From Escherichia phage phiWec172, in sequence record LC739530.1: DNA of 64,000 nucleotides. The stretch is one strand, 5' to 3'. A program made the position numbers and the translations under genes. Below are positions 2,844-32,366 of this stretch, one piece after another; the stretch's first letter is position 1, and each line of letters starts with the position of its first letter. The notes under the pieces are model-generated. The model worked only from the letters and a program-made list of their open reading frames with translations. It had not been told where the DNA came from and ran no database searches.

Positions 2844-3239
2844 TTAGTTAATTTTGAAAATTGTCACATAGCCGTCACTGCCGATTATTTGAGACACTCC
2901 AGCTTTTTCCACTGAATAGCCCATATTTTCAAGATGATAAACAGCATCATCATAACCATATGCGCCACCCTGATAACGTCTCTTATCGCATCTTATCAGG
3001 TTTTTACCACGTCCTGCAAGTGCATGGAGAATTGTTTTTTCACTTGAAAGAGTACCATCTAACATGGTTGCCGTGTAATGGTTGATTTTATTCCCGTTGA
3101 TATCATACTTAAAATTGAACGAGTGAACAACAATTATTTTGCCGTTAAATTTTTCATCAAGCGCCTTCTCTAATACATTACGAAAATTTTCTTTATTGAT
3201 GAATTTCGGTGCGCGGTATGCCATTTTTAAGTTCTCCAA
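2844..3239 (-). CDS. hypothetical protein
   Basis: 131-aa ORF. Confidence 0.4.
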   Translation of the reverse strand: MENLKMAYRAPKFINKENFRNVLEKALDEKFNGKIIVVHSFNFKYDINGNKINHYTATMLDGTLSSEKTILHALAGRGKNLIRCDKRRYQGGAYGYDDAVYHLENMGYSVEKAGVSQIIGSDGYVTIFKIN

Positions 3240-3311
3240 TTTAGGATTGAGTGGTAAAGCTCTTTATCTGGGGCTTAAGATACTACCTTTTTAAACCCCA
3301 TGTAAAGCACT
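3240..3311 (-). promoter_or_regulatory. Repeated intergenic cassette type A (imperfect hairpin)
   Basis: Same conserved leader GTGGTAAAGCTCTTTATCTGGGGCTTAAG... (plus-strand view). Confidence 0.45.
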
Positions 3312-3473
3312 TTATGAAATAATTTTTATAAAATCTTTCATGGTTATCTTGTCGCCATTTGTTAGGGCTATGCAGTCATTATCCATCACTGACTTGTAAA
3401 GGTAGAAAACTTTCCCAATTTTTGGGTATCCGTCTAAATCTTTGTAGCTTATTACATTGCCTTCTTTAATCAT
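3312..3473 (-). CDS. small hypothetical protein (about 53 aa), below ORF-track length cutoff
   Basis: ATG-initiated frame MIKEGNVISYKDLDGYPKIGK... read on minus strand; stop overlaps end of cassette A. Confidence 0.3.
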   Translation of the reverse strand: MIKEGNVISYKDLDGYPKIGKVFYLYKSVMDNDCIALTNGDKITMKDFIKIIS

Positions 3474-4165: not shown

Positions 4166-4945
4166 TCAGCTTATGAATTTGAACTTTTTAGAATACAGCA
4201 AGTAGTGAACTTCATCCTGATTTGTTGTGTAGATGTACGCTGCTGGGTAGTTATCAAAGAATACACCTTCATATCTTCCAAACGGGTCAACTGGGAACAT
4301 TTCACTGTTACACATACCCATCTCACTAACCAGAGGGTAACTAACCTCAACCTTGCCATCAACAAGCTGATAGAGGGTAACTTGATTAGTCTTCCCGTCA
4401 CTTAGCACGACACCATCATAGAATTGTGGTGCTGAGGTAGCATACTTAGTGGTAACTACACTTGCCATTGCTTCATCATAGACGTATAGGTACACATCAA
4501 CGTTATACATAACACTATTAATGAGGCTTTTCACAGCTTGTGCATCTAAACCGCCTATACCTGCCCCAATCATGGGTAAACCAATCTTACGAATGTTGTG
4601 CAGCCAGCAAAATTTACGGAGTTTTTCTAGTGACTCCACTAAGTATCGGTATGATGCACACTTCCCAACATCCAACTGTGTATATAGGTTAAAAATGTAA
4701 CCATACTCCGTTCGAGCATGTGACACCTCACCAGCCATCTGGTATCCGATATCATGGGCACTGTAGCCAAACTTTTTATGGAACTTCCGGTCAGCTTCTT
4801 CAGCTTTTGGGAAAATCTTAGCAATTTTTTGAGCGATTCCAGCACCCATGAGGTTACGACAGTTGCAACCATGAGCAATTAACTCAATGTCTGTGTTTTT
4901 GAAGGCAGCTAGTAAGTTACCTTTTACAACTTTTACAATACCCAT
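4166..4945 (-). CDS. Macro-domain (ADP-ribose-binding/processing) protein with C-terminal extension
   Basis: N-terminus VVKGNLLAAF..DIELIAHGCNCRNLMGAGIAQKIAKIFP resembles macro-domain core (compare YmdB [32 protein letters not shown]); about 90 extra C-terminal residues. Confidence 0.5.
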   Translation of the reverse strand: MGIVKVVKGNLLAAFKNTDIELIAHGCNCRNLMGAGIAQKIAKIFPKAEEADRKFHKKFGYSAHDIGYQMAGEVSHARTEYGYIFNLYTQLDVGKCASYRYLVESLEKLRKFCWLHNIRKIGLPMIGAGIGGLDAQAVKSLINSVMYNVDVYLYVYDEAMASVVTTKYATSAPQFYDGVVLSDGKTNQVTLYQLVDGKVEVSYPLVSEMGMCNSEMFPVDPFGRYEGVFFDNYPAAYIYTTNQDEVHYLLYSKKFKFIS

Positions 4946-12064: not shown

Positions 12065-12381
12065 GACTCACCTCTCATATTTTTGTAAAGGATAAAGCTT
12101 CTGTCATGGACGATACTTGTAGATACTGCAAAGTTACTTTCAAGCATCTGTTTGTTTGGATTGTAGAAGCTTTCTTTAAACTCGTCAAGCGCAAATTGGT
12201 GATGTTGTGGAAGACCTTTTATACATATTTTTATTGTGATTGCTGCTGCAATCTTGCCAGTCAGTTCTTCTTTAGCTGCTACTAAAATTTTGTTAAGGAA
12301 CTTATGACCATTTTCAGGTTTCTTAATGTTCTCCCAACGTTCTTCTAAGACAATGTTGATATTCATCTCTTTGATTTTCAT
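12046..12381 (-). CDS. hypothetical protein
   Basis: 111-aa ORF; RBS GGAGAAAAC upstream. Confidence 0.4.
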   Translation of the reverse strand: MKIKEMNINIVLEERWENIKKPENGHKFLNKILVAAKEELTGKIAAAITIKICIKGLPQHHQFALDEFKESFYNPNKQMLESNFAVSTSIVHDRSFILYKNMRGESCKHIG

Positions 12382-12394
12382 AGTTTTCTCCAGA

Positions 12395-12422
12395 AATTAA
12401 AAAGGCTCCCGTAGGAGCCTCT
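12395..12422 (-). terminator. Intrinsic terminator after nadV (GGCUCC-UACG-GGAGCC then U5)
   Basis: GC stem with UNCG-type tetraloop and T-run on minus strand. Confidence 0.55.
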
Positions 12423-12434
12423 TATCATATACTT

Positions 12435-14216
12435 TTAAAGCTGCTTGTCAATATTATTTCGAATATCACCAAGAGATGTGTAACCGTACTGCTCAGAGTC
12501 ACTAAAGACTAAACGTAAAGCACAAGCTGGGTGGTCAAGTGCATCTGCAAAGCTCTGGAATCCATAGCCATCTACAGCTTTCAACTTATCACCATCCCAC
12601 ATAGGTGCTACACCACCAAAAGCAGACTTCTTAACACCACTATCTGTTTTAGGGTCTTTTGCAAGCATAATCTCTTTACCACCAATGCTTGCAAGAGTTG
12701 CTTTAACAGCAAATGCAAAGGTGTCACGAGTCATGTACTGGTAAGTGTAAGAGCCTACGCCAAACACTACGTTAGAGCTTGCAAAACCCATTTCATACAG
12801 ACGCTTCAGGATTTCGTTTGCACGTTCCAGCGTGATAGAGTCACCATAGATAAGGCCGATATGCTCATCCAGTACCTTAAACCCTTTAGAGTTAATAGTT
12901 CCCCCAAAGATGTTATACAGTGTCTTGATAGCTCCATCAATCTCCGCTACAGGACGTGTTACAACGTTTGCAGAACCAACCATATAAGCATTTTTCAACA
13001 GCACTGTATCAGCAACTTCAAAGTCTTCTCTGTCAACAACCATTTCGTAGCCTTCTGACAGTAGCCATCCAGCAATACCATAATTGATGTTTTCAAGCTT
13101 CATGTTCAGGACAGAGTTCAGCATTGTGTCACTTGCCTCTAGCTTGCTTAGGTGCTCGTAATAAGCCTTCTTAGCACACTCTAAGTGAATTGCTTTATAA
13201 CCTGTGACAATATGTACAGGGTCTCCAGAGTCAGGGCGAATTACCAGTTTGCCATCACGTTCCATAATTTCTTTACGGAGTGCTGGTAAGATTTCTGACA
13301 CAGTTCTCCAGAAGTTGTAAGTATCTGAAACAATACTTGCAATACCAGTTGGGTAAGTTTCTGTTAAGAAACGACGGAAGGTTTGTAACTCACCTTTAAA
13401 GCGTCTTTCTTCTTCAATCAACTCATTACCACCTTCCCAAGCAATGTTTGCACACATTACAGAGTGTTCAGTGGCTGGTACAGAGTTACCAATATCAGAG
13501 ATTGGGTAGGACTGACCGTAGATGCGTTTAGCTGTATAAACAGCAGGGAAACTATCAGTTCCTTTAAAGCTGGTTAAGTGACCTACAGCGTTAAATGCGT
13601 CATCAGTAAAGCCGGACATACCACGCATAGCAAAGTCATGGCACTGATAGGGTAGATGCAAGTCGTTGTCACAAGTAAGGTCAGCCCACTTCTTACAGAT
13701 ACGTTTGTAGTGCAATGCAATAGTTGCAATGGTACAAGCCTTCCAAATCTCAGCAGAGAAAGCATCTTCCAGATACCCAGCTACCCAATGGAAACCTGAA
13801 ATAGTGTTCTGGAAGACAATCATTGGGGCACGCATAGGGACAACTGTGCCTTCTTCTACAGCGTATACTTCAACTGGTAGATAACCTAAGTCGTTAAGTG
13901 CTTCCCAATGCTCTCGACCGATAGCATCTTTACCTAGAACACCGTTCATGACTTCTAAGATTTCGTCAATTGCTTCTTTTTTGTCACGTTCAAAGAAAGT
14001 GGCGTTCCAGTGGTCTATCAAGTAATCTTTAACAAAACGTTGAATACCAAAAGCCACTACACCGTCAATTGCTAAAGGGCTGTTAAACCATTTGTCACTA
14101 CGTGGTGTCAGGTTCAACATAAGATATTGCGTAGCATCTGGATACTGATATATATGTGATGCCTTGTAAGCATCTGCATTAAGACCTGCTGGTACTGCAT
14201 AAAGTGATTTAGTCAT
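12435..14216 (-). CDS. nadV: Nicotinamide phosphoribosyltransferase (NAMPT/NadV), with a roughly 90-aa internal insertion
   Basis: N-terminus DAYKASHIYQYP, core VIRPDSGDP and GLIYGDSI motifs match the NAMPT family; 593 aa versus about 490 typical. Confidence 0.75.
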   Translation of the reverse strand: MTKSLYAVPAGLNADAYKASHIYQYPDATQYLMLNLTPRSDKWFNSPLAIDGVVAFGIQRFVKDYLIDHWNATFFERDKKEAIDEILEVMNGVLGKDAIGREHWEALNDLGYLPVEVYAVEEGTVVPMRAPMIVFQNTISGFHWVAGYLEDAFSAEIWKACTIATIALHYKRICKKWADLTCDNDLHLPYQCHDFAMRGMSGFTDDAFNAVGHLTSFKGTDSFPAVYTAKRIYGQSYPISDIGNSVPATEHSVMCANIAWEGGNELIEEERRFKGELQTFRRFLTETYPTGIASIVSDTYNFWRTVSEILPALRKEIMERDGKLVIRPDSGDPVHIVTGYKAIHLECAKKAYYEHLSKLEASDTMLNSVLNMKLENINYGIAGWLLSEGYEMVVDREDFEVADTVLLKNAYMVGSANVVTRPVAEIDGAIKTLYNIFGGTINSKGFKVLDEHIGLIYGDSITLERANEILKRLYEMGFASSNVVFGVGSYTYQYMTRDTFAFAVKATLASIGGKEIMLAKDPKTDSGVKKSAFGGVAPMWDGDKLKAVDGYGFQSFADALDHPACALRLVFSDSEQYGYTSLGDIRNNIDKQL

Positions 14217-14231
14217 CTTTTAATCTCTCTC

Positions 14232-14723
14232 TTAGTTATGTCTTGCAAACTCACCATGAAGTTCTATTCGCTTTTTAATTACAGCTTCTTTTGCTTCTTC
14301 TACCGTTTTAAATCTTCCACAAAAGTATTCTTTACGGTAAAGCATGACTCTTGCTTTGTAAAGACCTGTTTGTTTACAAAAACTTACACCCTTCACACCA
14401 GTTTTATTATTCTTGTGTATACCCCTATTCCTCTGATTTTGTGACTTTGTGCTAAGTCTTAAATTCTCCAACTTATTATTAGCTTTATCAAGGTCTATGT
14501 GGTCTATCTCATATCCACTTGGTATCTCACCTCCAGACATAATCCATGCAATATTATGTGCATAGTACCTCTTCTTATTTATCTGGACTTGGATATAACC
14601 CTTCTTAGACCTTGTGCCAGCCACATTACCAGCAATAGCGGTACTGCAAAGGGTTACTCTCCAAATTAATAAACCTGTATCTGGTTCATATATTAGGTAT
14701 TTTTCAAAATAACCCTTATTCAT
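14232..14723 (-). CDS. HNH homing endonuclease with AP2 DNA-binding domain
   Basis: IDHIDLDKANNKLENLRLSTKSQN (HNH) and GVKGVSF..GLYKARV..GRFKTVEEAKEA (AP2-like). Confidence 0.7.
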   Translation of the reverse strand: MNKGYFEKYLIYEPDTGLLIWRVTLCSTAIAGNVAGTRSKKGYIQVQINKKRYYAHNIAWIMSGGEIPSGYEIDHIDLDKANNKLENLRLSTKSQNQRNRGIHKNNKTGVKGVSFCKQTGLYKARVMLYRKEYFCGRFKTVEEAKEAVIKKRIELHGEFARHN

Positions 14724-14731
14724 ACTGTTAC

Positions 14732-15628
14732 CTAATCAAGGTTTGCTACAGTAACTTGACTGTAATGTGTTAAGCCACGGTCTTTAGCTTCGCCTAAAGA
14801 GTTTGTAGTGTAAATATGGTCGATACCATTGTCAAGAAGGTTTTCAACATCTTTAGAGAAGATACCATGTGTTACATATAGTTCCACACGTTTTGCACCT
14901 GCTTCACGAAGATGTTTCGCTGCTTCTATGAAGGTTCGACCACCATCACAGATATCATCCAGAATCATGACGGTTTTATCTGTCAAATCAACATCATCAA
15001 GGATTCGCATACCAGTAATTTCACCAGTCTTAAGGTTACGCACTTTAGACATTGTGATGTATGGTTTATCCACCTCTTTAGCAGTCTCTGCAATCTTCTT
15101 AGCAGCACCTGCATCTGGGGCTACTAAGTAATCAATCAGTGGGTCATTTGCGTAGTGGACTGCAATCTCCTTTTGAGGAATACTCTGGAAGCAGTTAAAC
15201 AGGTTATCTGGAACGTAACTGTGAGGGTCAACTGCACAGACTGCACCAAACCCCATTGCATTTACCTGTTTAGCAAAAACCTTTAAAGCTGCTGCGTCGC
15301 CTTTAAACATGTGACGGTCATATCGTGCATTTGGTAAGTAGTAAAAGATGACAGTCTTTAAAGCATAATCATGAGGAATTAAATCATCAATTGCTTCTTT
15401 AGCAAGTGCCACAGCAAACAATGTGTCCTTATCATAACCTTTTACAATCATAATCACATTGTTGATAGATGATGCTGCATAAGCAGTGAAATCAACAAAC
15501 TCCGGTGAAAAGTGTCCACCAATCTCACCAGAAGGGAATTGGACGATGTTAAACTCTTCTTCATGAGTCCCTTTAGTTGGTGAATGAACTGTAACACGGA
15601 TAGATGTTTTCATAGTTTTCTCTCTCAA
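14732..15628 (-). CDS. prs: Ribose-phosphate pyrophosphokinase (PRPP synthetase)
   Basis: PRPP-binding motif VMILDDICDGGRTF; 298 aa. Confidence 0.7.
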   Translation of the reverse strand: MREKTMKTSIRVTVHSPTKGTHEEEFNIVQFPSGEIGGHFSPEFVDFTAYAASSINNVIMIVKGYDKDTLFAVALAKEAIDDLIPHDYALKTVIFYYLPNARYDRHMFKGDAAALKVFAKQVNAMGFGAVCAVDPHSYVPDNLFNCFQSIPQKEIAVHYANDPLIDYLVAPDAGAAKKIAETAKEVDKPYITMSKVRNLKTGEITGMRILDDVDLTDKTVMILDDICDGGRTFIEAAKHLREAGAKRVELYVTHGIFSKDVENLLDNGIDHIYTTNSLGEAKDRGLTHYSQVTVANLD

Positions 15629-16411: not shown

Positions 16412-16462
16412 ATTATCTCCAAAATAAAAAGGGAACCTTTACAGTTCCCTTATAGTATCTGC

Positions 16463-16783
16463 TTACTGAGCTACTTTCAAGATTCTTGTGAATGGAATTT
16501 CACTTTCTTCCATTAACTCTTTAGTTTCTTTGGTAACTTTCACAAAGTTGTCTAGGCAGATAATCTTCTTATCTTTCTTACTATAGGTTAATTTAACCTT
16601 TTCAATATCTTTCTCAGAGCTTTTCTCTTCATTGAAGAGTTTTACAGCCTCTTTGAATGGGAGATATGAGCCATCATTATCACTAATGAATCCTGTACCA
16701 CAATAGTAGGAGTTATGCTCTCTAGCCATAAACTGGCACAGTAAGAAAATCTGTAATTTACGAGTGTTATAAACTTTGCTCAT
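16463..16783 (-). CDS. hypothetical protein
   Basis: 106-aa ORF. Confidence 0.4.
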   Translation of the reverse strand: MSKVYNTRKLQIFLLCQFMAREHNSYYCGTGFISDNDGSYLPFKEAVKLFNEEKSSEKDIEKVKLTYSKKDKKIICLDNFVKVTKETKELMEESEIPFTRILKVAQ

Positions 16784-17067: not shown

Positions 17068-17424
17068 TTAAAGTTTAATACAGAACTTATGAAGTTCTTC
17101 TTCAGTGATTCCTATTGGAGTGATACCCTCTCTCATGTTTTGAATCCTGTAGAAGTCTCCAAATTTATCTGACTCGTGTATGACAAAGGTGACATTCTTT
17201 ACAATCGTTGCAAGAGCACATAATGAATGTGCACCAAATTTTTCTCTTGTATAAATAATCCAGGCATCTAACTTGTTGATGTCATAAGTCCACTTGCCAG
17301 AATAATCATTCTGCTCGCCATTGACAATCGCCTTGCCACCCATACTCTTTTCTCCAGAGGTTTTGGTTATCAGAACCACGATACGGTTTAACTGTTGGTT
17401 TAGATGAATCATACTTACCATCAA
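17068..17424 (-). CDS. hypothetical protein (true start probably internal)
   Basis: 118-aa ORF overlapping 3-prime end of nrdG by about 119 nt. Confidence 0.3.
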   Translation of the reverse strand: MMVSMIHLNQQLNRIVVLITKTSGEKSMGGKAIVNGEQNDYSGKWTYDINKLDAWIIYTREKFGAHSLCALATIVKNVTFVIHESDKFGDFYRIQNMREGITPIGITEEELHKFCIKL

Positions 17425-17791
17425 TCACCACGTCAACATATTTCATCACATCTAGGTGGATTTTTTCGTGTAACTGAAAACCTGTCCAAAGCCATATAGA
17501 TTTTTCTGGGTAAACAGTTTTAATACGTTTGCATATGTTGGTGACCTCTTGAATGTTTCTGTCATCCAGAGGCTCTCCACCAAGTATTGACAACCCACTA
17601 ATGGCCTTATCATCCATTAACTTAATGATGCCGTAGAGGTTTGCATAAGTAAACTCTTTACCAGCATTAAACTTCCAAGACTCCCTGTTAAAGCAGCCTT
17701 CACAGTGATGTTTACAGCCAGCTACGAAGAGGCTTACCCGAACCCCTTCACCATTAGCTGTGTCAAATGGTCGAATCTCCATGTAATTCAT
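17306..17791 (-). CDS. nrdG: Anaerobic ribonucleotide reductase activating protein (radical SAM)
   Basis: CKHHCEGC (CxxxCxxC radical SAM) and RGSDNQ motif as in E. coli NrdG. Confidence 0.7.
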   Translation of the reverse strand: MNYMEIRPFDTANGEGVRVSLFVAGCKHHCEGCFNRESWKFNAGKEFTYANLYGIIKLMDDKAISGLSILGGEPLDDRNIQEVTNICKRIKTVYPEKSIWLWTGFQLHEKIHLDVMKYVDVVIDGKYDSSKPTVKPYRGSDNQNLWRKEYGWQGDCQWRAE

Positions 17792-17826
17792 CTAGTTACC
17801 TCACCAAGACTATTTAATTGTTTTAC

Positions 17827-18222
17827 TCATTCAAACACTACCTGACAAGGAACCTGTTTAGTAATAAATTCTTCACAGTGTTCTTTAATGAAGTTTTGTA
17901 ATGGTACACAATCTTGTGCGCAAGTCATTAGCATAATGTACTCTGGGTTCATGATGTTTTCAAGGGTGTAGAAGACAACAGCGTTAGATAGTTCATGCCC
18001 ATCTTCTTCAGACCAAGTTCCAGTGACTACAGCTAATTTGTCAAGCAATTCATTAGGCAATGCTACACCATCTTCTACAGAATCACTTAGAACATTGTCA
18101 CCGATATACAATGTGAAGGTCGTATGGAATGTTGAGTATCTTACGTGGTTCTTTTCACAAGAGCCACACTCTGAGGCGTAATCTTTAATCCACTCTAACT
18201 GTTTTTGGTTCAACTTAATCAT
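17827..18222 (-). CDS. hypothetical protein
   Basis: 131-aa ORF. Confidence 0.4.
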   Translation of the reverse strand: MIKLNQKQLEWIKDYASECGSCEKNHVRYSTFHTTFTLYIGDNVLSDSVEDGVALPNELLDKLAVVTGTWSEEDGHELSNAVVFYTLENIMNPEYIMLMTCAQDCVPLQNFIKEHCEEFITKQVPCQVVFE

Positions 18223-18419
18223 AATTTCACCTTAGTTGGTAATGCACTGAATGCTATAGCTAATCCTAAAAATGGTTTGAAGCATGACCATAAATCCATC
18301 TGACCATGATATGAGAAACTCCATTGTGGGTCTGAAAAACCCCATACCATAACGCTAACACCAAAGAAGAAGATTAGAATGTGGAGTATGTATATCAACG
18401 CTTTTGATATCTTAAACAT
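18219..18419 (-). CDS. hypothetical small membrane protein
   Basis: 66 aa, hydrophobic (ILHILIFFFGVSVMVWGF). Confidence 0.3.
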   Translation of the reverse strand: MFKISKALIYILHILIFFFGVSVMVWGFSDPQWSFSYHGQMDLWSCFKPFLGLAIAFSALPTKVKL

Positions 18420-18572
18420 TTTAACTTATCTCTCAATTCACAATAAGAGAGTCCTAAAAAGAACCCCAGTAAGACAGAACCTATGAACAACCCAATAATA
18501 CTATCTGTCATATCTAACATCCAATAAAAAGGTGATGTAAGCCTATCAAGACCCACATCACCTTGTCAAGTT

Positions 18573-19520
18573 TTACATAGAGACTCTATCACGAATCTCA
18601 GCGATTTTTGCATCGTTCATTCGGGATTCACCTTTAATCTTAGTCCATCCAAGATACCCACACACCCTGTTAATCACAGAGATATCATGTGAATGGCAAA
18701 CCTCACATTCTTCAACATCAGCCTTTGGTCTGTTACCACAATGTTCACAGATTGCTAAGTCAAAGTTAAGCCCCTGATAAAAACCTTTCAACATCCCTCT
18801 GGTAATACAACTTTTAAGTGCTGTTAAGTTTTCTGGGTTAGCTACCCTGACATACTGGATTCTCCCACCTCTACAGATATGGAAGAATGGCTCTTCTAAG
18901 TCCTGCTTCTCAAATGGTGATATGTCTGCTGCAACATTCATATGGAAACTGTTTGTAAAGTATTCCTTATCAGAAACACCTTTGATAACGCCAAACATAT
19001 CTCTGAACTGTTTTAGCTGAGTTCCGCAAAGTGATTCTGCTGGAGTACCATAGACGGCATATAAGAAGCCGTCTTCATTTTTAAACTCTTCAGTTTTCAT
19101 GTTAATGTATGCCAGAACATCGTATGTAAAACTACAGCTTCCAACTTCATGAAGCCGTTTACCTTCAGCAAGAACAGATAGCTCATCAAGCGCAGTAACC
19201 CCAAAAGAAGCTGTGAAGGACTTCACAATATCCCAACCAACCCTGTCAGTAGGATTCTTAGTTCCTTTATACAGACCACCTTGTGTAAATGCAAGAGGGT
19301 TAGAACTTGCTGGCATATTAGCAATCATTTCGTAGCGTTTCTTGTGGAAGCTGCGAATTATTTCTAGGTACTTATCAAGCTCTTTCCAGAAATCTAAACC
19401 ATTCTCTTTAGAATACTGGTAAATCATCGGTAAGTTCAAAGATACAGCACCAATGTTTGCACGACCTACATAAAACTCTTCACCATATTCGTTATAGTAT
19501 GGTGATAAAAATGCTCTACA
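18573..19520 (-). CDS. nrdD: Anaerobic ribonucleoside-triphosphate reductase NrdD, exon 2 (glycyl-radical and zinc-ribbon region)
   Basis: Glycyl-radical motif RVCGYLG, Cys cluster CEHCG..CEVC; open frame extends upstream of track start to CRAFLSPYY... Confidence 0.65.
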   Translation of the reverse strand, partial: CRAFLSPYYNEYGEEFYVGRANIGAVSLNLPMIYQYSKENGLDFWKELDKYLEIIRSFHKKRYEMIANMPASSNPLAFTQGGLYKGTKNPTDRVGWDIVKSFTASFGVTALDELSVLAEGKRLHEVGSCSFTYDVLAYINMKTEEFKNEDGFLYAVYGTPAESLCGTQLKQFRDMFGVIKGVSDKEYFTNSFHMNVAADISPFEKQDLEEPFFHICRGGRIQYVRVANPENLTALKSCITRGMLKGFYQGLNFDLAICEHCGNRPKADVEECEVCHSHDISVINRVCGYLGWTKIKGESRMNDAKIAEIRDRVSM

Positions 19521-20262
19521 CTTGTTGTTCAGGTAAGTTCGCTAAGCTTACCCCGCTTTATTCAAGCTGCTTACTGTCGCCAGTAAGTCCAGACTATATC
19601 TTCTACTTATTTCTAAGTAGCGTACCATTTCGAGTCGCTTGACCCTACACCGCTACATTCATCACGGTTAGTCGTTCGGCATTTAGATGTATTCAAACTC
19701 ATACTCAAAGTTATTATGCTCTTTCACACCCTTCAATATTGAAGAGATGGTCTTGCGATTGTGTCCAAGTATATTGGATAACTCTCGTATTGACTTAGCA
19801 ACAATAACTTCCTTTGTCACTTTGTGTGTGGCTTTCACGGCATATGAACGCTTTTGGAACTTGTAGCATCCGTTCTCATAACCTTCTTTAGCATTCTCAG
19901 AATGAGTACCCCATTCTAAGTTAGATGCGTGGTTATTTAGTTTGTTATCGTCCTTATGTTTTACAATTGGAAGATTATTTGGGTTAGGTACATACTTCTC
20001 AGCAACTAACCTGTGGACATACATGTCACGATTCTTCTTACCGTAAAACCTCACTTTCATATACCCAGTGTTGGATTTCCACTGCGTAAGCTCTACACCA
20101 TTTTCCCTAAAGACTTTTCCATCTTCAGTGACGTGATAGTTTGGCATGTAAGACTCCTATGTTGTATAGTTTCTTACATCGTACATCATTTAGCACAGGA
20201 TTGTCTACATATGTAGAGTTTCCCTGTTTAGGCACGTTTTAGATGAGCTATAGAGCCTGTTA
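19521..20262 (-). mobile_element. Group I intron in nrdD carrying an HNH endonuclease ORF
   Basis: Exon 1 ends in U, in-frame TAA right after; P-like AACAGGGAAAC, Q-like AAUCCUGUGC, R-like UCAAGCGACUCG, S-like AGAUAUAGUCUGG; terminal G before exon 2. Confidence 0.6.
19683..20147 (-). CDS. HNH homing endonuclease (intron-encoded)
   Basis: HKDDNKLNNHASNLEWGTHSEN HNH motif; lies inside the nrdD intron. Confidence 0.65.
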   Translation of the reverse strand: MPNYHVTEDGKVFRENGVELTQWKSNTGYMKVRFYGKKNRDMYVHRLVAEKYVPNPNNLPIVKHKDDNKLNNHASNLEWGTHSENAKEGYENGCYKFQKRSYAVKATHKVTKEVIVAKSIRELSNILGHNRKTISSILKGVKEHNNFEYEFEYI

Positions 20263-21459
20263 ACCCATCGGCGAAATAACCTTGCCAGAACGCTCAAAAG
20301 CCTCTGCTACAGCCCCATGACCAGACACACTTAAGAAATCTGGATACATTGCTTTAGAGCAACACTCAATAGCTTTACTGTACAGGTGGCATTGACAGAT
20401 ATTCTCATTATGTCTCTTCTGGTCATAAATATAAACCAGTTTAGGGAATACAACAGGTTTCTTGCTCTTACCTTGTCCATTCATACGAACATCTAGGAGA
20501 GTACTTGCAATCATATATTGCAGTCGGTTATCTTCATTGGACATATCTGAATCAAGTAACCCGAATGTCAAAGTTGTAAATGCAAAATCCCCACGACTAC
20601 AAGGTACAGTGTTTAGTTTCATTTCAAGTGACTGGAAACCTTGAGTCAGTTCAATCTGTAGCTGCTCCATGACATAATTGTGGTAATGCTCTTTAGGAAT
20701 ACCATAAGATGCTGCTTTCTCAGCATGATAGCGTAGAGACTTCTTAGCATACGGTACAAGTACCTTATCAATCTCTGCTAAAGTAAAACCACCAAATTGC
20801 TGTGCAGTTGCTGAAAGAACTATGTCACCAATAACCTGTAAGGCCGACAGCACAGACTTTGGTTCACAGTATTCAATGCCAGACATTTCAAAGCCACCTT
20901 TCAGTACTTTACCGATGTCAAACAGACAACAGTTGATACCACCAAAAATTAGGTCTCTTAAGTCATGGATGTAGATAAACCCTTTTTCAATGGCTTCAAG
21001 TTCCTCTGGTGTTAAGTGGTACTGCTTAAAGATTTCTTTAGTCAGATAACCACGAATAATTGAACCTTTTGTAGAAATTAAACTGCTGTCAAAGTTAGCA
21101 TTCTCTCTGTCGCCTAAGAAGAGTGTATCTTTGGTCTTCTGGTAGAGTTCATCCCAATTTTGAGCAACTTCTTTACGGTAATTTCTATATGTTGAGTAAG
21201 ACTCATAAATCTCGTGATTGACTTCTGCCAAAGCACCCTCAACAATACTGTGAATATCATTTACAGAAATCAGCAAATTATTCTGCTTAGTGGACTTTAC
21301 CAGAATCCTCATAAATGCTGACTCAAGAGCTTGGGTAACATCTGGTGGGAGTTCTTTATATCCAACCCTGTTAGCTGACTTAGTTACTGCTGCTAAAACT
21401 TTTTTGATATCAGGTTCTTCAAGTGAGCCATTCTTTTTAATAATCTGTACTTTGTTCAT
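20263..21459 (-). CDS. nrdD: Anaerobic ribonucleoside-triphosphate reductase NrdD, exon 1 (ATP-cone and N-terminal core)
   Basis: ATP-cone-like N-terminus VQIIKKNGSLEEPDIKKV; ends ...GKVISPMG at 5-prime splice site. Confidence 0.65.
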
Positions 21460-21477
21460 TATTGCCCCTTTACATGC

Positions 21478-21500
21478 TAAAAAGGTCTCCGAAGAGACCC
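21478..21500 (-). terminator. Intrinsic terminator (GGUCUC-UUCG-GAGACC then U5) upstream of nrdD
   Basis: Perfect 6-bp stem, UUCG loop, T-run on minus strand. Confidence 0.5.
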
Positions 21501-21507
21501 TTTCATT

Positions 21508-21714
21508 TTAAATCTTTTTAGAAAACTTTGAAACGAGTTTTCTTAGTTTTTCAGTGATGCCTAGCTGTATCTCTAATATTTCAAAGATAACCCATAGTAA
21601 CATGGCTCCAAACAATGAACCTTGTTCAAAATCAGTAAATAGGTTAACAACAAGCATACCAATCACAATAGCTGGTGCATCAACAACCAAACCTTCCCAA
21701 AGGCGTTTAAGCAT
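21508..21714 (-). CDS. hypothetical small membrane protein
   Basis: 68 aa, hydrophobic. Confidence 0.35.
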   Translation of the reverse strand: MLKRLWEGLVVDAPAIVIGMLVVNLFTDFEQGSLFGAMLLWVIFEILEIQLGITEKLRKLVSKFSKKI

Positions 21715-21949
21715 TATTCACCTCTGTCATAAAATTCTGTAGCGTTCCAACAGGTTTTAGGTTTTGACCGTCAGTTTTCATGATGAATGGCATCTGACGA
21801 ACTGGCATCTGTGCAATATCCATCAGGTCTGGCAGTTCATAATCCTGCCCTAACATTCTCACAACATGGTCAATACCACGAGCTTTCGCAAAATTCTTTG
21901 CAGTCTCACACTGAGGGCATCCAGTTTTGGAGTAAATTACATAAGTCAT
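21707..21949 (-). CDS. nrdH: Glutaredoxin-like protein (NrdH-type redoxin)
   Basis: CPQC active site near N-terminus, 80 aa, adjacent to nrdB. Confidence 0.65.
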   Translation of the reverse strand: MTYVIYSKTGCPQCETAKNFAKARGIDHVVRMLGQDYELPDLMDIAQMPVRQMPFIMKTDGQNLKPVGTLQNFMTEVNNA

Positions 21950-23022
21950 TAAGGAACCTCTAAAAATCCACTATTCAAATCATCTACAACAGTATTCAAT
22001 AAATACGCACCGTTCTGTTGCTCCTGATTAGCATTCTGCTCTTTATCAATTTCCATCTTCTTAATCATATACTTCAAAGGTGGTTCTTTAGGAGCTACAA
22101 AATCTCTGGGAATGCCAAACATGTCATACAGTGGGGCAGCATTATAGTAAACCCACTCATGAAGAAGCTTTGTATTTAACCCAACTACAGCACGTCCTTC
22201 GGAGAAGATATAATACGACCATTTCTCTTCACTTTCAACCACTTCATCTAAGATTACTTTAATCTCTGGAAGAATTTGTTGAAAAGCTTTCTGCCACTCA
22301 TCATCTCTTAAAGTTTCTTTTAAAACTTCAATATCAATTTTAGTGTGAAGGATTTCGTCAAGCATAATTTTCTGGACAGCTTGAGCAATACCCTGAAATT
22401 TATCTTGAGCATCAAGTGCAAAAGTACATGCAAAGGATGCCATAAAAGATATACCTTCAAGTGCAGTCACTGCAAATAGACCTTTTAGAATCACTTTATG
22501 GAAGTGTAAAGGGTCTTTGTCCAGAAGTGAATCACGGACATAACTCAGTCGGTAATTTATCCCTTCATCCAGTAATTCTTCAAGAACACGATTCACAGTT
22601 TTTAATCGGTCTTGCACAGCAACATTCTGGTTAATCTCATCTAAGATTGTTTCAGGGTTTTTAATACATTGCCTTACAATCTCTGAGTAAGTAAGGGCAT
22701 GTAGGTTTTCAATCTCAGACTGCTTCATAATTGCAGTTGCATAGATGTCATCAGAGATAAAGGGTGCAAAGGCAAATGCCAAGCTCTTAGCAACTTGAGT
22801 ATCTGCTTCCCATTGCCACTTGAGAATCTCAAGCATTACACCTGACATAGATGCTGGAACACTCTCAAAATCAAGACGTGATTGTTCAAAAGGGAACTCA
22901 TCTTCTGACCAATCTTGTGCTTTTTGTTGCTTATATAGTTCAAAGATTTTTGGGTAGTGTTTATTAAGTGAGTCAAAAGTTTTTCTCTCACCACCTAAAA
23001 AGATTGGGTGCTGGTTAATCAT
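21949..23022 (-). CDS. nrdB: Ribonucleotide reductase class I small subunit
   Basis: Start adjusted to internal ATG (MINQHPIF...) giving ATGA overlap with upstream gene; track ORF extends to 23082 from a TTG. Confidence 0.7.
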   Translation of the reverse strand: MINQHPIFLGGERKTFDSLNKHYPKIFELYKQQKAQDWSEDEFPFEQSRLDFESVPASMSGVMLEILKWQWEADTQVAKSLAFAFAPFISDDIYATAIMKQSEIENLHALTYSEIVRQCIKNPETILDEINQNVAVQDRLKTVNRVLEELLDEGINYRLSYVRDSLLDKDPLHFHKVILKGLFAVTALEGISFMASFACTFALDAQDKFQGIAQAVQKIMLDEILHTKIDIEVLKETLRDDEWQKAFQQILPEIKVILDEVVESEEKWSYYIFSEGRAVVGLNTKLLHEWVYYNAAPLYDMFGIPRDFVAPKEPPLKYMIKKMEIDKEQNANQEQQNGAYLLNTVVDDLNSGFLEVP

Positions 23023-23360
23023 AATGTGATTTCTCCTTTCTTTATCATTTCTAAGGCTTGTTTTCTGTCTAAAACTTCCCAATTTTCTTTGTTAAACATC
23101 TCATAAGGTCTTGCGTAGATTTTACAATCTGCTGTAGAGATGTAAGAGATACCAGCAACCCATGAGTCATCATTTTGTTTTATCATCATGTCTGTGCTAC
23201 TCACATAGTACATCGTTTTCCGAGGCTTGTGGAGCAAGTATATAGGTCGCTTATGTTTTTCTATTAAATCTTTCATGGTCTCTCCAAAGTTATTTTTAGA
23301 GGGTCTTTTACGACCCTCATAGTTGTTAAAACTAAACACCACAACCCTCGCAATAAGCAT
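23019..23360 (-). CDS. hypothetical protein between nrdA and nrdB
   Basis: 113-aa ORF. Confidence 0.4.
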   Translation of the reverse strand: MLIARVVVFSFNNYEGRKRPSKNNFGETMKDLIEKHKRPIYLLHKPRKTMYYVSSTDMMIKQNDDSWVAGISYISTADCKIYARPYEMFNKENWEVLDRKQALEMIKKGEITL

Positions 23361-25566
23361 CTTGCAGTGCGGATTTACCTACACCAATGCGGCTGTTAAG
23401 GTAGTACATGGTTTTCATACCTACCGAGTTGGCATAAATCATGTACTTCAAAGCTTGAGCCAATGATACCTTCTTAGCTTTTGCGTAGTCAACATAGAAA
23501 TCTGAAGAGATAGCTTGACCAGTGAACTTTTGAACAATTGCATAACAATCAATCAGGTCAAAGGTGTCAATACCCCAAGCAATCTCATAGACATACTTCA
23601 ACTCTTCATAATCTGGAACAATAAACAGTACGTTACCAGTTGCAGATTTTTTAGTTAAAATAAAGTCACGAATTGGGTACAAGCCATTTGTCGTATTAGT
23701 TGCTAGTGAAGAACTCTCATTAGGCATGTAAGCTTCTAATACAGAGTTTCGGATTCCACCATTTTCTTTGATACGTTGTGCTAAGTCATCCCAATCATAT
23801 CGTAGTTTTGCATCATGCTTTTCATCAATCTTCTTGTTAGCTGTCTTTGGAGGAACCCAGCCTTCAGGGTACTTAGTGAACTTCATGTACTCTGGAACAC
23901 CACGCTCTTTAGCAAGTCTCAGAGAGGCTTCATGCAGATAGTAAGAGTGCATCTCTGCAAGTTCATGAAGTTTCGTTTTACCTGCTCGTGAAGAGTAGTT
24001 CACGTAGTTCTTCGCAAGGTAATGAGCCACATTTGTAAGGCCAATCCCAACAGAACGACGCTTCTGAACATGGTTACGCATCGACGGATACGGATAATCC
24101 ATAAGGTCAATAACGGAGTCAACCATTGCAAGAGCATAATAAGCAACGTCAGCGTATTCATCTTCTGAAATTCTCCCTGCAACCAAACTAGCTAGGAAGC
24201 AAAGAGCCACCTCACCATCCTCTTTCACAGCATCATCTCTGTAAAGGTCTGTCTCTTTCTCAAAACCATACACTGGCAACACAACTTCCATACAAAGATT
24301 TGACATCTTCAATGGTTCTTTAAATGGTGTATGTGTGTTCGCATTGTTAGTGAAGAATGGATACACACGACCTGTAGCATAACGCTGTTGAATAAACAGC
24401 TTAGCAATTTCACGAGCCTTGACTCGTCTATGTTTAACACCTGAATGTACTGCATGACCAACTGCCATAGCAAACTCATCAGCAGATGCTGTGTAGAACA
24501 TGTCATAGAGTTTTGGTGCATCTTTGTAAGAGAATAGCAACCAATCTGTATCATACTGAACACACTGCCAGAAATAATCGTTTGTGCCGAATGAGTAGTC
24601 CATCTCGTTAATGCGTTTAGAAGGAACCGTTGTAGGGTGCTTCAAACGCAGTAAATCTTCAATCTGCGGGTCTAGAGCAGTGTAGAAGTTATTAGCTGAA
24701 CCACCACGACTCTTCTGTTTATTTGCCTCTACAGATGAACGTACAAGCTTGTAATAAGGTAGCTTACCCATGTGCTCAATAGTATTTTGACGGATACCAT
24801 CACCAATAGTGCGAGTCTCCATCAGCATACCAATACCAGCTTGCTTTGTAGTCATATCATAAGCAACCTTTGCAGCAATACCAAGTGATTCAGCAGTATC
24901 ATTTGCCTTAATCAAACAGCATGACGCATAACCTGATTTAGTAGCTCTTAAACCATTTAAATAAGGTGTAGGAGCGTTAATCTTCAGGTCAGATAGGTAA
25001 GTGTACAGCTTGATAACATCTTGCAGTCTACGGTGCTTTGGTTGCTTCTCAAAGGCTTTCATAGCCATACCCATAAACATAAATTGTGGTGACTCAAAAA
25101 GTCTTCCCGTTTTAATATCACGGATACCATACTTGTCTCTGAACTGTTTCAAGACTGCATAACCGTAAGAGATATCTTTTGAGTGCACGATGTAACCTTG
25201 CAGGTATTCAAGCTCTTCCTGTGAGTAATCCATCTTCTCCCAAAGTCCTGCTCTCTCCATATTTTTAACGAAGGTAATCAGCGTAGGAACCTTAGTAAAG
25301 CCTCCAAAGGCTTCTTTGTAGATAATCCCCAGAAGTAGCCGTCCAGCCATATCTGAGTACTCTTGAGTTTGTTTATCAACACAAACATCAATCATGGCTT
25401 GGTGCATCTCTTTTGTAGTGCAACCCTCATAGACACGTTTCATAGCTTCCATAGTGACTTCTGACCAGATAATTCCACGCTTATCTGCCCATGATGCCCA
25501 CTTATTCAGTCTTTCTGGGTCAAAGTTTACTACTGTACCATTTGATTTTTTAATTGTCTTAATCAT
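23332..25566 (-). CDS. nrdA: Ribonucleotide reductase class I large subunit
   Basis: 744 aa; N-terminal ATP-cone-like region, C-terminal CEGCGV cysteine pair. Confidence 0.8.
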   Translation of the reverse strand: MIKTIKKSNGTVVNFDPERLNKWASWADKRGIIWSEVTMEAMKRVYEGCTTKEMHQAMIDVCVDKQTQEYSDMAGRLLLGIIYKEAFGGFTKVPTLITFVKNMERAGLWEKMDYSQEELEYLQGYIVHSKDISYGYAVLKQFRDKYGIRDIKTGRLFESPQFMFMGMAMKAFEKQPKHRRLQDVIKLYTYLSDLKINAPTPYLNGLRATKSGYASCCLIKANDTAESLGIAAKVAYDMTTKQAGIGMLMETRTIGDGIRQNTIEHMGKLPYYKLVRSSVEANKQKSRGGSANNFYTALDPQIEDLLRLKHPTTVPSKRINEMDYSFGTNDYFWQCVQYDTDWLLFSYKDAPKLYDMFYTASADEFAMAVGHAVHSGVKHRRVKAREIAKLFIQQRYATGRVYPFFTNNANTHTPFKEPLKMSNLCMEVVLPVYGFEKETDLYRDDAVKEDGEVALCFLASLVAGRISEDEYADVAYYALAMVDSVIDLMDYPYPSMRNHVQKRRSVGIGLTNVAHYLAKNYVNYSSRAGKTKLHELAEMHSYYLHEASLRLAKERGVPEYMKFTKYPEGWVPPKTANKKIDEKHDAKLRYDWDDLAQRIKENGGIRNSVLEAYMPNESSSLATNTTNGLYPIRDFILTKKSATGNVLFIVPDYEELKYVYEIAWGIDTFDLIDCYAIVQKFTGQAISSDFYVDYAKAKKVSLAQALKYMIYANSVGMKTMYYLNSRIGVGKSALQDAYCEGCGV

Positions 25567-25583
25567 TTTTGAATCCTACAGAT

Positions 25584-25607
25584 GAAAAGAGCCTCCGAAG
25601 AGGCTCC
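25584..25607 (-). terminator. Intrinsic terminator (GAGCCUC-UUCG-GAGGCUC) upstream of nrdA
   Basis: 7-bp stem with UUCG loop; short T-run. Confidence 0.45.
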
Positions 25608-25612
25608 CTAGT

Positions 25613-25951
25613 TTAAATCTTGAAAATTTGCTCATTCTGCCACATATCGTAAAACTTATCACTTACTTTTGTGACTGAAGAAGTGTGCATACAATTCAGG
25701 GAGAACCATGATGATGTATTATCATCCATAAGTGTTTCAAGTTTTTGTGTAACATTCACATCCATGTCTGCAACAACGTAATTGCCTCGCATCTTGCAAA
25801 CAATTCTTCCAAACAAGATTGCACTTCTGCCTCTTTGGTCATCACAGTACATAACTGTGTCTCCGTGCTTAACATCTTGTCCGATACTGTCAACACCTAA
25901 TTTAGCACCTGAGATAATGTCATCATAAGATAGCTTTTTTGCTTTAGACAC
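25613..25951 (-). CDS. hypothetical protein
   Basis: 112-aa ORF. Confidence 0.4.
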   Translation of the reverse strand: MSKAKKLSYDDIISGAKLGVDSIGQDVKHGDTVMYCDDQRGRSAILFGRIVCKMRGNYVVADMDVNVTQKLETLMDDNTSSWFSLNCMHTSSVTKVSDKFYDMWQNEQIFKI

Positions 25952-27242: not shown

Positions 27243-27248
27243 TAGTTA

Positions 27249-28776: not shown

Positions 28777-28780
28777 TATG

Positions 28781-32358: not shown

Positions 32359-32366
32359 TCTCTCTT

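What the first reader, a model, noticed from the sequence alone, without database searches (positions are those of the whole stretch)
12435..15628. NAD+ salvage cluster (NadV - HNH-AP2 endonuclease - Prs) as a candidate counter-defence module
A nicotinamide phosphoribosyltransferase and a PRPP synthetase sit side by side, separated only by a homing endonuclease. Together they convert nicotinamide and ribose-5-phosphate into NMN. Phage NAD+-reconstitution pathways are known to counter NAD+-depleting bacterial immunity, so this pair could serve that role. No NMN adenylyltransferase was recognised in the window.
Basis: partly seen in the sequence, partly recalled or inferred. Interest (0 to 1): 0.6.

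Follow-up and report, generated by a model that had tools for sequence, protein, structure and literature searches.

The report
Known phage NAD+ rebuilding operon (NARP1)
These genes are a near-copy of the NARP1 operon already proven in the closely related coliphage Bas63, which rebuilds NAD+ directly from the fragments left by NAD+-destroying bacterial defences, with a selfish homing-endonuclease gene sitting between the two enzymes; it is real but already known.

Summary
They are a Nampt-like gene (12435-14216), an HNH endonuclease (14232-14723) and a Prs-like gene (14732-15613/15628). The window is a Felixounavirus, 100% identical here to phiWec177/174.

The two enzymes are orthologues of bas63_0080 (97% identity) and bas63_0079 (78%). 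These are the two genes in which Osterman et al. (2024) discovered NAD+ reconstitution pathway 1 (NARP1).

The counter-defence idea is therefore supported, but the proposed chemistry is not. The "Prs" is Adps (ADPR + ATP -> ADPR-PP). The "NadV" is Namat (ADPR-PP + nicotinamide -> NAD+). No NMN adenylyltransferase is needed, and none was found (nor any Nudix domain) in about 96 ORFs.

The Namat signature motif GSYTYQYMTRD, the catalytic residues of both enzymes and the Adps catalytic lysine are all present.

The middle gene is a free-standing mobile homing endonuclease:
- It is present in about a quarter of relatives and absent from Bas63.
- It is about 90% identical in another genus, with identity decaying outward from it.

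Novelty: already known.

Side lead: an unlinked Tk.4/Adpp-family macrodomain gene at 4166-4945 might extend the pathway.

The parts
14732..15613 (-). adps: ADPR-pyrophosphate synthetase (Prs-like), 293 aa. First enzyme of NARP1.
   Evidence: Pfam and PHROG hits. It is 78% identical over 293 aa to Bas63 gene 79, 32% to the structurally characterised ICP1 Adps, and 22% to E. coli Prs. Residues R97, H131, D167, K190 (= ICP1 K185), D219, D220, D223 and the PP loop C222-T227 are conserved. GAGAGAGA RBS lies before the ATG at 15613. An in-frame TTG at 15628 is the mechanical ORF start.
14232..14723 (-). Free-standing HNH homing endonuclease gene (HEG), 163 aa, inserted in the adps-namat spacer.
   Evidence: HNH_3 5.6e-19, with a weak AP2 match. 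It replaces the 30-nt hairpin spacer found in Bas63. It is present in 63 phage records, against about 250 that carry the flanking genes. It is absent from Bas63, REP12, SPJ41, fKMPT1 and LF82P1. It is about 91% identical in phiSUSP1 (another genus), where the flanks fall to 57-75%. A paralogue at 37619-38134 is 38.5% identical.
12435..14216 (-). namat: nicotinamide ADPR-transferase (Nampt-like), 593 aa. Second enzyme of NARP1.
   Evidence: 97% identical over 593 aa to Bas63 gene 80. 8.6e-127 to the solved SpbetaL1 Namat, 9w5w/9w5x. Active-site and selectivity-clamp residues: D15, Y17, K42/W43, F195, R198, D221, H251, R327, D329, and G488-S-Y-T-Y-Q-Y-M-T-R-D498 (with PMC12774641). It contains an Ounavirinae-specific 85-aa insertion, aa 343-427 (window 12936-13190).
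12400..12423 (-). Intrinsic-terminator-like hairpin plus T-run, 11 nt after the namat stop codon. Probable 3' end of the transcription unit.
   Evidence: AAGAGGCTCC-TACG-GGAGCCTTTT followed by TAATTT: 10 pairs, 5 of them G-C. It is overlapped upstream by a promoter-like TTGACA-16-TATGAT at 12451-12424, which would serve the next genes.
16429..16480 (-). Promoter-like site (TTGAAA-17-TACTAT, 16480-16452) directly followed by a hairpin plus T-run (16451-16429). Probable upstream boundary of the unit that contains ORF171, ORF92, adps, the HEG and namat (inferred).
   Evidence: These are consensus matches only. No transcript data were available.

Best explanation
This is the NARP1 (NAD+ reconstitution pathway 1) counter-defence operon of a Felixounavirus, interrupted by a selfish homing-endonuclease gene.

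How it works:
1. A host NADase defence (SIR2-HerA, DSR, type I Thoeris and similar) cleaves NAD+ into ADP-ribose and nicotinamide.
2. Adps (14732-15613) transfers the beta-gamma pyrophosphate of ATP onto the distal ribose of ADP-ribose, giving ADPR-PP.
3. Namat (12435-14216) replaces that pyrophosphate with nicotinamide, regenerating NAD+ in one step.

No PRPP, NMN or NMN adenylyltransferase is involved.

The HNH ORF (14232-14723) is a free-standing mobile homing endonuclease. It has replaced the short hairpin spacer between the two genes. It is not part of the chemistry.

Shown here:
- orthology to the validated Bas63 genes;
- conservation of catalytic and specificity residues;
- absence of an NMNAT;
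- sporadic, laterally transferred distribution of the HEG.

Taken from the literature on orthologues and homologues: the enzyme reactions and the anti-defence phenotype.

Inferred: that this phage's own proteins are active, and that the three genes are co-transcribed.
For: Identity of the locus:
- 100% DNA identity to Felixounaviruses phiWec177/174.
- Synteny with Bas63 genes 77-85, from rIIA/rIIB to nrdG.

Orthology to the validated genes:
- Namat is 97% identical over 593 aa and Adps 78% over 293 aa to bas63_0080 and bas63_0079.
- Bas63 genes 79-80 are the genes deleted in Osterman et al. The deletion lost the ability to overcome SIR2-HerA. ADPR-PP (m/z 720.010) appeared only with wild-type phage plus the defence system.

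Namat features:
- The signature GSX-Phi-X-Phi-X-Phi-TRD is present as GSYTYQYMTRD.
- The clamp loop (K42-W43) is identical to Bas63.
- The catalytic His251 and R327 (= R306 of the SpbetaL1 enzyme) are conserved.

Adps features:
- The catalytic Lys (K190 = ICP1 K185) and the acceptor-site residues R97, H131, D167, D219, D220 and D223 are conserved.
- It is closer to ICP1 Adps (32%) than to E. coli Prs (22%).

Other support:
- No NMNAT or Nudix domain in about 96 ORFs.
- HEG: HNH_3 domain; present in 63 of about 250 relatives; HEG-minus relatives keep a 45-nt spacer; identity to phiSUSP1 peaks in the HEG and decays outward.
- Tight packing: 8 nt and 15 nt gaps, each gene with its own RBS, and terminator-like hairpins only at the two ends.
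Against: - Nothing was measured on this phage's own proteins.
- The biochemistry in the literature used the SpbetaL1 and ICP1 homologues, because the Bas63 Adps did not purify well.
- The Adps N-terminal domain is only 66% identical to Bas63, with 57-68% DNA identity over the first ~315 nt.
- The two aromatic ADPR-adenine contacts of ICP1 Adps (F18, F92) align to T16 and M102 here. That part of the alignment is unreliable.
- The HEG insertion removed the hairpin spacer present in Bas63. Its effect on namat expression is unknown.
- The sibling genome phiWec174 carries a 1-nt deletion in an A6 run that frameshifts namat. The gene can therefore be lost, or that record has a sequencing error.
- SpbetaL1 Namat still makes NMN from PRPP in vitro, so some NMN production cannot be excluded.
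Confidence: 0.9

Rival explanations
1. A genuine PRPP synthetase and a genuine Nampt make NMN from ribose-5-phosphate and nicotinamide, and a host enzyme (NadR or NadD) finishes NAD+.
For: - Pfam, PHROG and GenBank names say Prs and Nampt.
- No phage NMNAT is present, so a host enzyme would be needed.
Against: - The SpbetaL1 Adps gave no product in the Prs-type assay but made ADPR-PP from ADPR + ATP.
- ADPR-PP was detected in cells infected by the 78-97% identical Bas63.
- Given both substrates, Namat made only NAD+.
- The window's Namat carries the adenine-clamp motif that is absent from Nampt.
- Adps clusters with phage Adps rather than with E. coli Prs.
Confidence: 0.04
2. The pair is a housekeeping NAD+ booster for phage metabolism, for example to supply NAD-dependent enzymes or nucleotide synthesis next to the nrd genes. 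It would not be a counter-defence device.
For: - It lies in the nucleotide-metabolism region (nrdA/B/D/G, thyA, folA, dNMP kinase).
- It is conserved in about 250 Ounavirinae genomes whatever the host.
Against: - In Bas63, the pathway intermediates appeared only when the defence system was present. Wild-type and deletion phages were compared on control cells in the same experiments.
- The substrate ADP-ribose is the product of NADase attack.
- NARP1 did not rescue phage from type II Thoeris, which does not deplete NAD+.
Confidence: 0.04
3. The middle ORF is a functional third component of the pathway, like the Adpp macrodomain phosphatase or the RyDEP glycosidase found inside other NARP1 operons. 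It would not be a selfish element.
For: - Accessory genes do occur between adps and namat in other phages.
- The ORF is tightly packed and on the same strand.
Against: - It has an HNH_3 nuclease domain, and no Macro or RyR domain.
- It is absent from Bas63, where NARP1 works.
- It is present in only about a quarter of relatives.
- It shows an inter-genus transfer signature.
- It has a paralogue (38.5% identity) in the intron/homing-endonuclease region that interrupts the DNA polymerase gene.
Confidence: 0.02

Closest known systems
NARP1 of Escherichia phage JohannRWettstein (Bas63), genes bas63_0079/0080 (Osterman et al. 2024; bioRxiv 10.1101/2024.02.11.579819)
   Same: - Same genus and the same genomic position, between ORF92 and the rIIA side.
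- Namat 97% and Adps 78% identical.
- Same 593-aa Namat with the 85-aa insertion and an identical clamp loop.
   Different: - The window has a 492-bp HNH HEG where Bas63 has a 30-nt hairpin spacer.
- The Adps N-terminal domain is a different allele, 66% identical.
- The first 150 nt of namat are 83% identical, against about 95% elsewhere.
- The window lacks bas63_0081.
Biochemically and structurally characterised NARP1 enzymes: SpbetaL1 Adps/Namat (PDB 9w5w/9w5x; PMC12774641) and ICP1 Adps (PMC13586617)
   Same: - Same folds and the same catalytic residues.
- Same Namat SCH motif.
- Same gene order, adps then namat.
   Different: - Only 32% identity to ICP1 Adps.
- The match to SpbetaL1 Namat is strong (8.6e-127) but falls in two blocks split by the insertions.
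- The clamp loop uses K42-W43 in place of R40.
- Namat has two extra insertions, about 15 aa at residues 258-276 and 85 aa at residues 343-427.
NARP1-AP (Adps-Adpp-Namat) of Vibrio phage Gary (bioRxiv 10.64898/2026.01.28.702374)
   Same: - Same core pair, with a gene inserted between adps and namat.
- The window genome also encodes a macrodomain of the same broad Tk.4/Poa1p-like family.
   Different: - The inserted gene here is an HNH endonuclease, not a macrodomain.
- The macrodomain gene lies 7.5 kb (about 13 genes) downstream of namat.
- It is only 28% identical to the Adpp-type protein.
NARP2 of Vibrio phage KVP40 (Nampt + bifunctional Nmnat)
   Same: A Nampt-family enzyme and an NAD+-restoring counter-defence role.
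   Different: NARP2 needs a phage Nmnat and lacks Adps. The window has Adps and no Nmnat or Nudix.
Free-standing HNH homing endonucleases of lytic phages (I-HmuI/HNH_3 type; Mob-like genes of T-even phages)
   Same: - HNH_3 domain with a C-terminal DNA-binding-like region.
- Intergenic position between conserved genes.
- Sporadic distribution, with a flanking identity gradient.
   Different: The cleavage site and activity are unknown. The AP2 match is below Pfam's threshold.

Membership tests
NARP1 (Adps + Namat) | A Prs-family protein that falls with phage Adps rather than with cellular Prs. | tested here: met
   78% identical to Bas63 Adps, 32% to ICP1 Adps and 22% to E. coli Prs. phrog_619 scores 6.1e-97. 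No full phylogeny was built.
NARP1 (Adps + Namat) | Adps catalytic lysine on the beta-hairpin (ICP1 K185, SpbetaL1 K162) and the acceptor and PP-loop residues. | tested here: met
   K190, R97, H131, D167, D219, D220, D223 and C222-D-G-G-R-T227 are conserved (residue list from PMC13586617). The aromatic contacts F18 and F92 are not matched, in an unreliable part of the alignment.
NARP1 (Adps + Namat) | A Namat gene within ten genes of adps (the Osterman criterion). | tested here: met
   One gene apart, on the same strand. The criterion is quoted.
NARP1 (Adps + Namat) | [quoted passage not shown] | tested here: met
   G488-S-Y-T-Y-Q-Y-M-T-R-D498, with Y490 and Y494 at the stacking positions.
NARP1 (Adps + Namat) | A Namat clamp loop that supplies a stacking residue (Arg at position 3, or Lys/Tyr followed by the stacking residue). 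| tested here: met
   S40-D41-K42-W43, identical to Bas63 Namat. The paper models Bas63 as using the fourth residue for stacking.
NARP1 (Adps + Namat) | A Nampt-like catalytic core: the nicotinamide-stacking Phe and Tyr, Asp, the catalytic His, and Arg306. | tested here: met
   F195, Y17, D221, H251, R327, D329, R198 and D15.
NARP1 (Adps + Namat) | Enzyme activities: ADPR + ATP -> ADPR-PP, and ADPR-PP + nicotinamide -> NAD+. | not testable with these tools
   Shown for the SpbetaL1 and ICP1 homologues, and ADPR-PP was detected in Bas63 infections. Not measured for this phage.
NARP1 (Adps + Namat) | Rescue of phage from NAD+-depleting defence systems. | not testable with these tools
   Shown for the Bas63 deletion mutant on SIR2-HerA, for FADO on DSR2, and for an SBSphiJ knock-in on type I Thoeris.
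NARP2 (Nampt + Nmnat) | A phage-encoded NMN adenylyltransferase, and no Adps. | tested here: not met
   No PF01467 or PF00293 hit in about 96 ORFs of the window. Adps is present. The roughly 22 kb of the genome outside the window was not scanned.
NARP1-AP (with Adpp macrodomain phosphatase) | A Macro-domain gene inside the operon or within two genes of it. | tested here: not met
   None of the neighbours of the operon has a Macro domain. The only Macro gene, 4166-4945, lies about 13 genes downstream. The criterion is quoted.
Canonical PRPP synthetase (Prs) | High similarity to cellular Prs, including the ribose-5-phosphate loop DxxxDTGGT. | tested here: not met
   22% identical to E. coli Prs. 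The loop reads DDICDGGRT against DDMIDTGGT. The best solved Prs scores only 5.4e-18. Activity was not testable.
Free-standing homing endonuclease | A nuclease domain, presence/absence polymorphism at a fixed intergenic site, and evidence of lateral movement. | tested here: met
   HNH_3 5.6e-19. 63 records carry it, against about 250 with the flanking genes. HEG-minus genomes keep a 45-nt spacer. Identity to the other-genus phage phiSUSP1 peaks in the HEG at 0.89-0.93 and falls to 0.57-0.75 in the flanks. Cleavage activity was not testable.

The most novel reading that the evidence does not exclude
The phage may run an extended NARP1 'in trans'.

- Window 4166-4945 encodes a 259-aa protein. Its N-terminal macrodomain belongs to the Tk.4/Poa1p-like family.
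- That family includes Adpp, the ADPR-1''-phosphate phosphatase that lets NARP1-AP phages beat aRES defence.
- Homologues sit inside the NARP1 operon in Thalassavirus and two genes from it in Pakpunavirus.
- The published survey looked only within two genes of NARP1, so Felixounaviruses would have been missed.
- This phage's allele is only about 40% identical to the allele in otherwise roughly 95%-identical relatives. That would fit arms-race turnover.

A second, weaker novelty: the homing endonuclease appears to drag the adjacent ends of adps and namat between phage genera. It may thus act as a vehicle for anti-defence alleles.
Probability: 0.2. Interest if true: 0.45.

Novelty: already known. 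Interest (0 to 1): 0.15.

Why it matters
This assigns the correct mechanism to genes that almost every GenBank record still labels 'ribose-phosphate pyrophosphokinase' and 'nicotinamide phosphoribosyltransferase'. In phiWec174 they are even labelled 'nadR' and 'hypothetical'.

It predicts that this therapeutic-type coliphage resists SIR2-, TIR- and DSR-type NAD+-depleting defences. It also explains why no NMNAT is present.

It adds no new biology to NARP1 itself. The modest extras are:
- NARP1 tolerates a mobile endonuclease between its two genes.
- That endonuclease shows a clear inter-genus transfer footprint.
- An unlinked Adpp-family macrodomain is worth testing against aRES.

Tried and rejected
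1. Bas63 accession. My guess from memory (MZ501111) was wrong; that record is WalterGehring. BASEL accessions are alphabetical, which led to MZ501086.

2. NMNAT/Nudix search. About 96 ORFs were scanned against Pfam in batches and none matched.

3. A solved Adps structure. The PDB copy returned only canonical Prs, best 4twb at 5.4e-18. Residues were mapped instead on the ICP1 sequence taken from GenBank.

4. The two upstream ORFs as NARP1 accessories. ORF92 is restricted to Felixounavirus-like phages. In phi92-like phages such as EC.P2, ORF171 homologues lie far from adps. Neither has a Macro or RyR domain. Rejected.

5. A link between the divergent adps 5' allele and the HEG. Rejected, for two reasons:
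   - Felix O1 is HEG-plus but has the Bas63-type 5' allele.
   - REP12, SPJ41 and LF82P1 are HEG-minus with the window-type allele.

6. Rfam and tRNA scans found nothing in the finding's interval.

7. Not run, because 97%/78% identity to the validated genes already settles membership:
   - The search for homologous proteins
   - The search of protein representatives
   - structure prediction
Full report
OBSERVATION.

- 12435-14216 (593 aa) matches NAPRTase PF04095 (7.9e-35), NAMPT_N PF18127 and phrog_448 'nicotinamide phosphoribosyl transferase' (1.4e-199).
- 14232-14723 (163 aa) matches HNH_3 (5.6e-19). The AP2 match is sub-threshold, 21 bits against a cut-off of 33.
- 14732-15628 (298 aa) matches Pribosyltran, Pribosyl_synth and phrog_619 'ribose-phosphate pyrophosphokinase' (6.1e-97).

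The likely true start of the last gene is the ATG at 15613. It has a GAGAGAGA ribosome-binding site, and the TTG at 15628 overlaps the upstream stop codon.

WHAT GENOME THIS IS. The 4.5-kb region is 100% identical to Escherichia phages phiWec177 and phiWec174. It is 90-96% identical to about 200 Felixounavirus genomes, including Felix O1 relatives. The neighbours are rIIA and rIIB on one side and nrdG, nrdD, nrdB and nrdA on the other.

WHAT IS KNOWN.
- Osterman et al. (bioRxiv 10.1101/2024.02.11.579819) started from this same gene pair, genes 79-80 of the BASEL phage Bas63 (JohannRWettstein), a Felixounavirus.
- Deleting the pair made Bas63 sensitive to the NAD+-depleting SIR2-HerA system.
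- Infected cells contained a new metabolite, ADPR-pyrophosphate, only when both the genes and the defence system were present.
- With purified homologues from SpbetaL1, the 'Prs' gave no product in the Prs-type assay. It converted ADP-ribose + ATP to ADPR-PP and was named Adps.
- The 'Nampt' converted ADPR-PP + nicotinamide directly to NAD+ and was named Namat. It could still make NMN from PRPP, but made only NAD+ when given both substrates.
- NARP1 was found in 859 phage genomes, 4.3% of those surveyed.

ORTHOLOGY. I located Bas63 (MZ501086) and compared the proteins.

- The window's Namat is 97% identical over all 593 residues to bas63_0080.
- Adps is 78% identical over 293 residues to bas63_0079.
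- Gene order on both sides is the same.

MEMBERSHIP FEATURES, NAMAT. The Namat structure paper (PMC12774641) defines a Nampt-like catalytic core plus an adenine 'selectivity clamp'. The clamp has the sequence signature GSX-Phi-X-Phi-X-Phi-TRD.

Mapping through the phmmer alignment to the solved SpbetaL1 Namat (9w5x, 8.7e-127) gives the following.
- Core residues: D15, Y17, F195, R198, D221, A248, H251 (the catalytic His), R327 (= R306), D329, G458, D459.
- Motif: G488-S-Y-T-Y-Q-Y-M-T-R-D498.
- Clamp loop: S40-D41-K42-W43, identical to Bas63. In Bas63 the residue after the Lys is modelled as the stacking residue.

MEMBERSHIP FEATURES, ADPS. The ICP1 structure paper (PMC13586617) names K185 as the mobile catalytic lysine. 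It names R87, H121, D161, D212, D213 and D216 as acceptor and phosphate ligands. All are conserved here, as K190, R97, H131, D167, D219, D220 and D223. Identity is 32% to ICP1 Adps against 22% to E. coli Prs.

The aromatic residues F18 and F92 do not align to aromatic residues, but that N-terminal alignment is weak.

NO NMNAT. Pfam scans of about 96 ORFs spanning the window found no cytidylyltransferase-like (PF01467) or NUDIX (PF00293) domain. In NARP1 this is expected. It is NARP2 (KVP40) that pairs a Nampt with an Nmnat.

The proposed route through PRPP and NMN, and the 'missing enzyme', are not.

THE MIDDLE GENE.
- In Bas63 the two genes are separated by 45 nt containing a GGGGCTT-GAAA-GCCCC hairpin. 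In the window, 30 nt of that spacer are replaced by the HNH ORF plus an 8-nt leader.
- The HNH gene occurs in only 63 phage records, against about 250 that carry the flanking genes.
- HEG-minus examples are REP12, SPJ41, fKMPT1, LF82P1 and Bas63. HEG-plus examples are VpaE1, Felix O1 and phiSUSP1.
- phiSUSP1 belongs to another genus, Suspvirus. Against it, identity peaks inside the HEG at 0.89-0.93. It falls progressively to 0.67 in the adps 5' half and to 0.57-0.79 in distal namat. This is the footprint expected for lateral homing with co-conversion of flanks.
- All three HEG-plus genomes examined carry the window-type allele of the first 150 nt of namat (86-96% identity). Three of the five HEG-minus genomes carry another allele (82-83%). 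The sample is small.
- A 38.5%-identical paralogue lies at 37619-38134.

The ORF is a selfish free-standing homing endonuclease. It is not a pathway component like the Adpp macrodomain or the RyDEP glycosidase found inside other NARP1 operons.

TRANSCRIPTION CONTEXT (inferred only).
- Gaps of 8 and 15 nt separate the three genes. Each enzyme gene has a GAGAGAGA ribosome-binding site.
- A strong terminator-like hairpin follows namat at 12423-12400.
- A similar promoter-plus-hairpin unit lies at 16480-16429, upstream of ORF171.
- The unit may therefore run ORF171-ORF92-adps-HEG-namat.
- ORF92 and ORF171 show no NAD-related domains and no conserved linkage to adps outside this lineage.

VARIATION WORTH NOTING.
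- The Adps N-terminal domain exists as two alleles in Felixounaviruses. In one search, 155 records are at least 90% identical to the window and 91 records are 60-80% identical. Against Bas63, the N-domain is 66% identical and the C-domain 89%. The allele is not tied to the HEG.
- Namat carries an 85-aa insertion (aa 343-427) found only in Ounavirinae (253 records). It is also present in the functional Bas63 protein.
- phiWec174 differs from the window by four substitutions and one deleted A in an A6 run, which frameshifts namat.

SIDE LEAD. Window 4166-4945 encodes a 259-aa protein with an N-terminal Macro domain (PF01661, 29 bits against a cut-off of 22; phrog_335 'phosphatase').
- A profile built from it and seven phage homologues hits OARD1/TARG1 (2.5e-22) and yeast Poa1p, the ADPR-1''-phosphate phosphatase (1.5e-14, full length).
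- One member of that alignment, Vibrio phage Wyman gp178, lies between adps and namat. It is 89.8% identical to the experimentally validated Adpp of Vibrio phage Gary. It is 28% identical to the window protein.
- In Pseudomonas phage PaGz-1 the homologue lies two genes after namat.
- The aRES paper searched only within two genes of NARP1.
- The family (T4 Tk.4) is present in more than 2,000 phage records, many without NARP1. Linkage is therefore not specific, and the function here is open.
- The window allele is only about 40% identical to the allele of other Felixounaviruses.

VERDICT. This is a real feature, correctly spotted and correctly guessed to be anti-defence. It is the already published NARP1 operon in the same genus where it was discovered. 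Novelty: already known. Interest: low. Two testable side observations are of modest interest: homing-endonuclease-mediated exchange of NARP1 flanks, and an unlinked Adpp-family macrodomain.

Noticed in passing
window 4166-4945 (-): A 259-aa protein with an N-terminal Macro domain of the Tk.4/Poa1p/TARG1-like family, plus a roughly 100-aa C-terminal extension of unknown function. It is a distant homologue (28%) of the NARP1-AP phosphatase Adpp. Homologues are NARP1-linked in Thalassavirus and Pakpunavirus. This allele is only about 40% identical to the one in other Felixounaviruses, although the genomes are about 95% identical.
   Followed up: partly
window 13977-13982 (A6 run in namat, sense strand): The sibling genome phiWec174 (LC739531) lacks one A here. 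Its namat is therefore annotated as two frameshifted ORFs, while the window copy is intact. This is either a sequencing error or a natural loss of NARP1.
   Followed up: partly
window 15164-15613 (5' half of adps): There are two sharply different alleles of the Adps N-terminal domain among otherwise 90-98%-identical Felixounaviruses. Identity is 57-72% DNA and 66% protein against the Bas63 and Felix O1 type. In one search, 155 records fall with the window type and 91 with the other. The allele is not correlated with the homing endonuclease.
   Followed up: partly
window 12936-13190 (namat aa 343-427): An 85-aa insertion in Namat relative to the solved SpbetaL1 enzyme and to Nampt. It is found only in Ounavirinae (253 records) and is not discussed in the structure paper. 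Its function is unknown.
   Followed up: partly
window 36735-37018 (+) and ORFs 37068-38134: Rfam detects a group I intron (63.8 bits, 7.4e-14) at the end of the first DNA-polymerase ORF (34655-36838). Downstream ORFs include an HNH_3+AP2 endonuclease. Pfam DNA_pol_A hits fall in two separate ORFs, so the polymerase gene appears to be interrupted.
   Followed up: no
window 18573-21459 with 19683-20147 (-): The anaerobic ribonucleotide reductase nrdD is split into two ORFs by an HNH_3 endonuclease gene. Bas63 has the same arrangement, where nrdD is annotated as a two-piece join. A SegE-type GIY-YIG endonuclease ORF is also present somewhere in 17306-34396.
   Followed up: no
window 12400-12451 and 16429-16480 (-): A promoter-like site is immediately followed by a terminator-like hairpin whose 5' arm would contain the predicted transcription start. 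Such a hairpin would stop read-through from upstream but would not form in transcripts started at that promoter. The architecture is repeated.
   Followed up: no
window 884-991, 1681-1773, 2750-2857, 3220-3316: Four copies of a roughly 90-110-bp intergenic repeat, 83-97% identical, lie between small early genes (self-hits).
   Followed up: no
L004:25509-25853 (Bas63 gene 0081), compared with window 12381-12435: Bas63 has an extra 114-aa ORF between namat and the next gene. The window lacks it.
   Followed up: no
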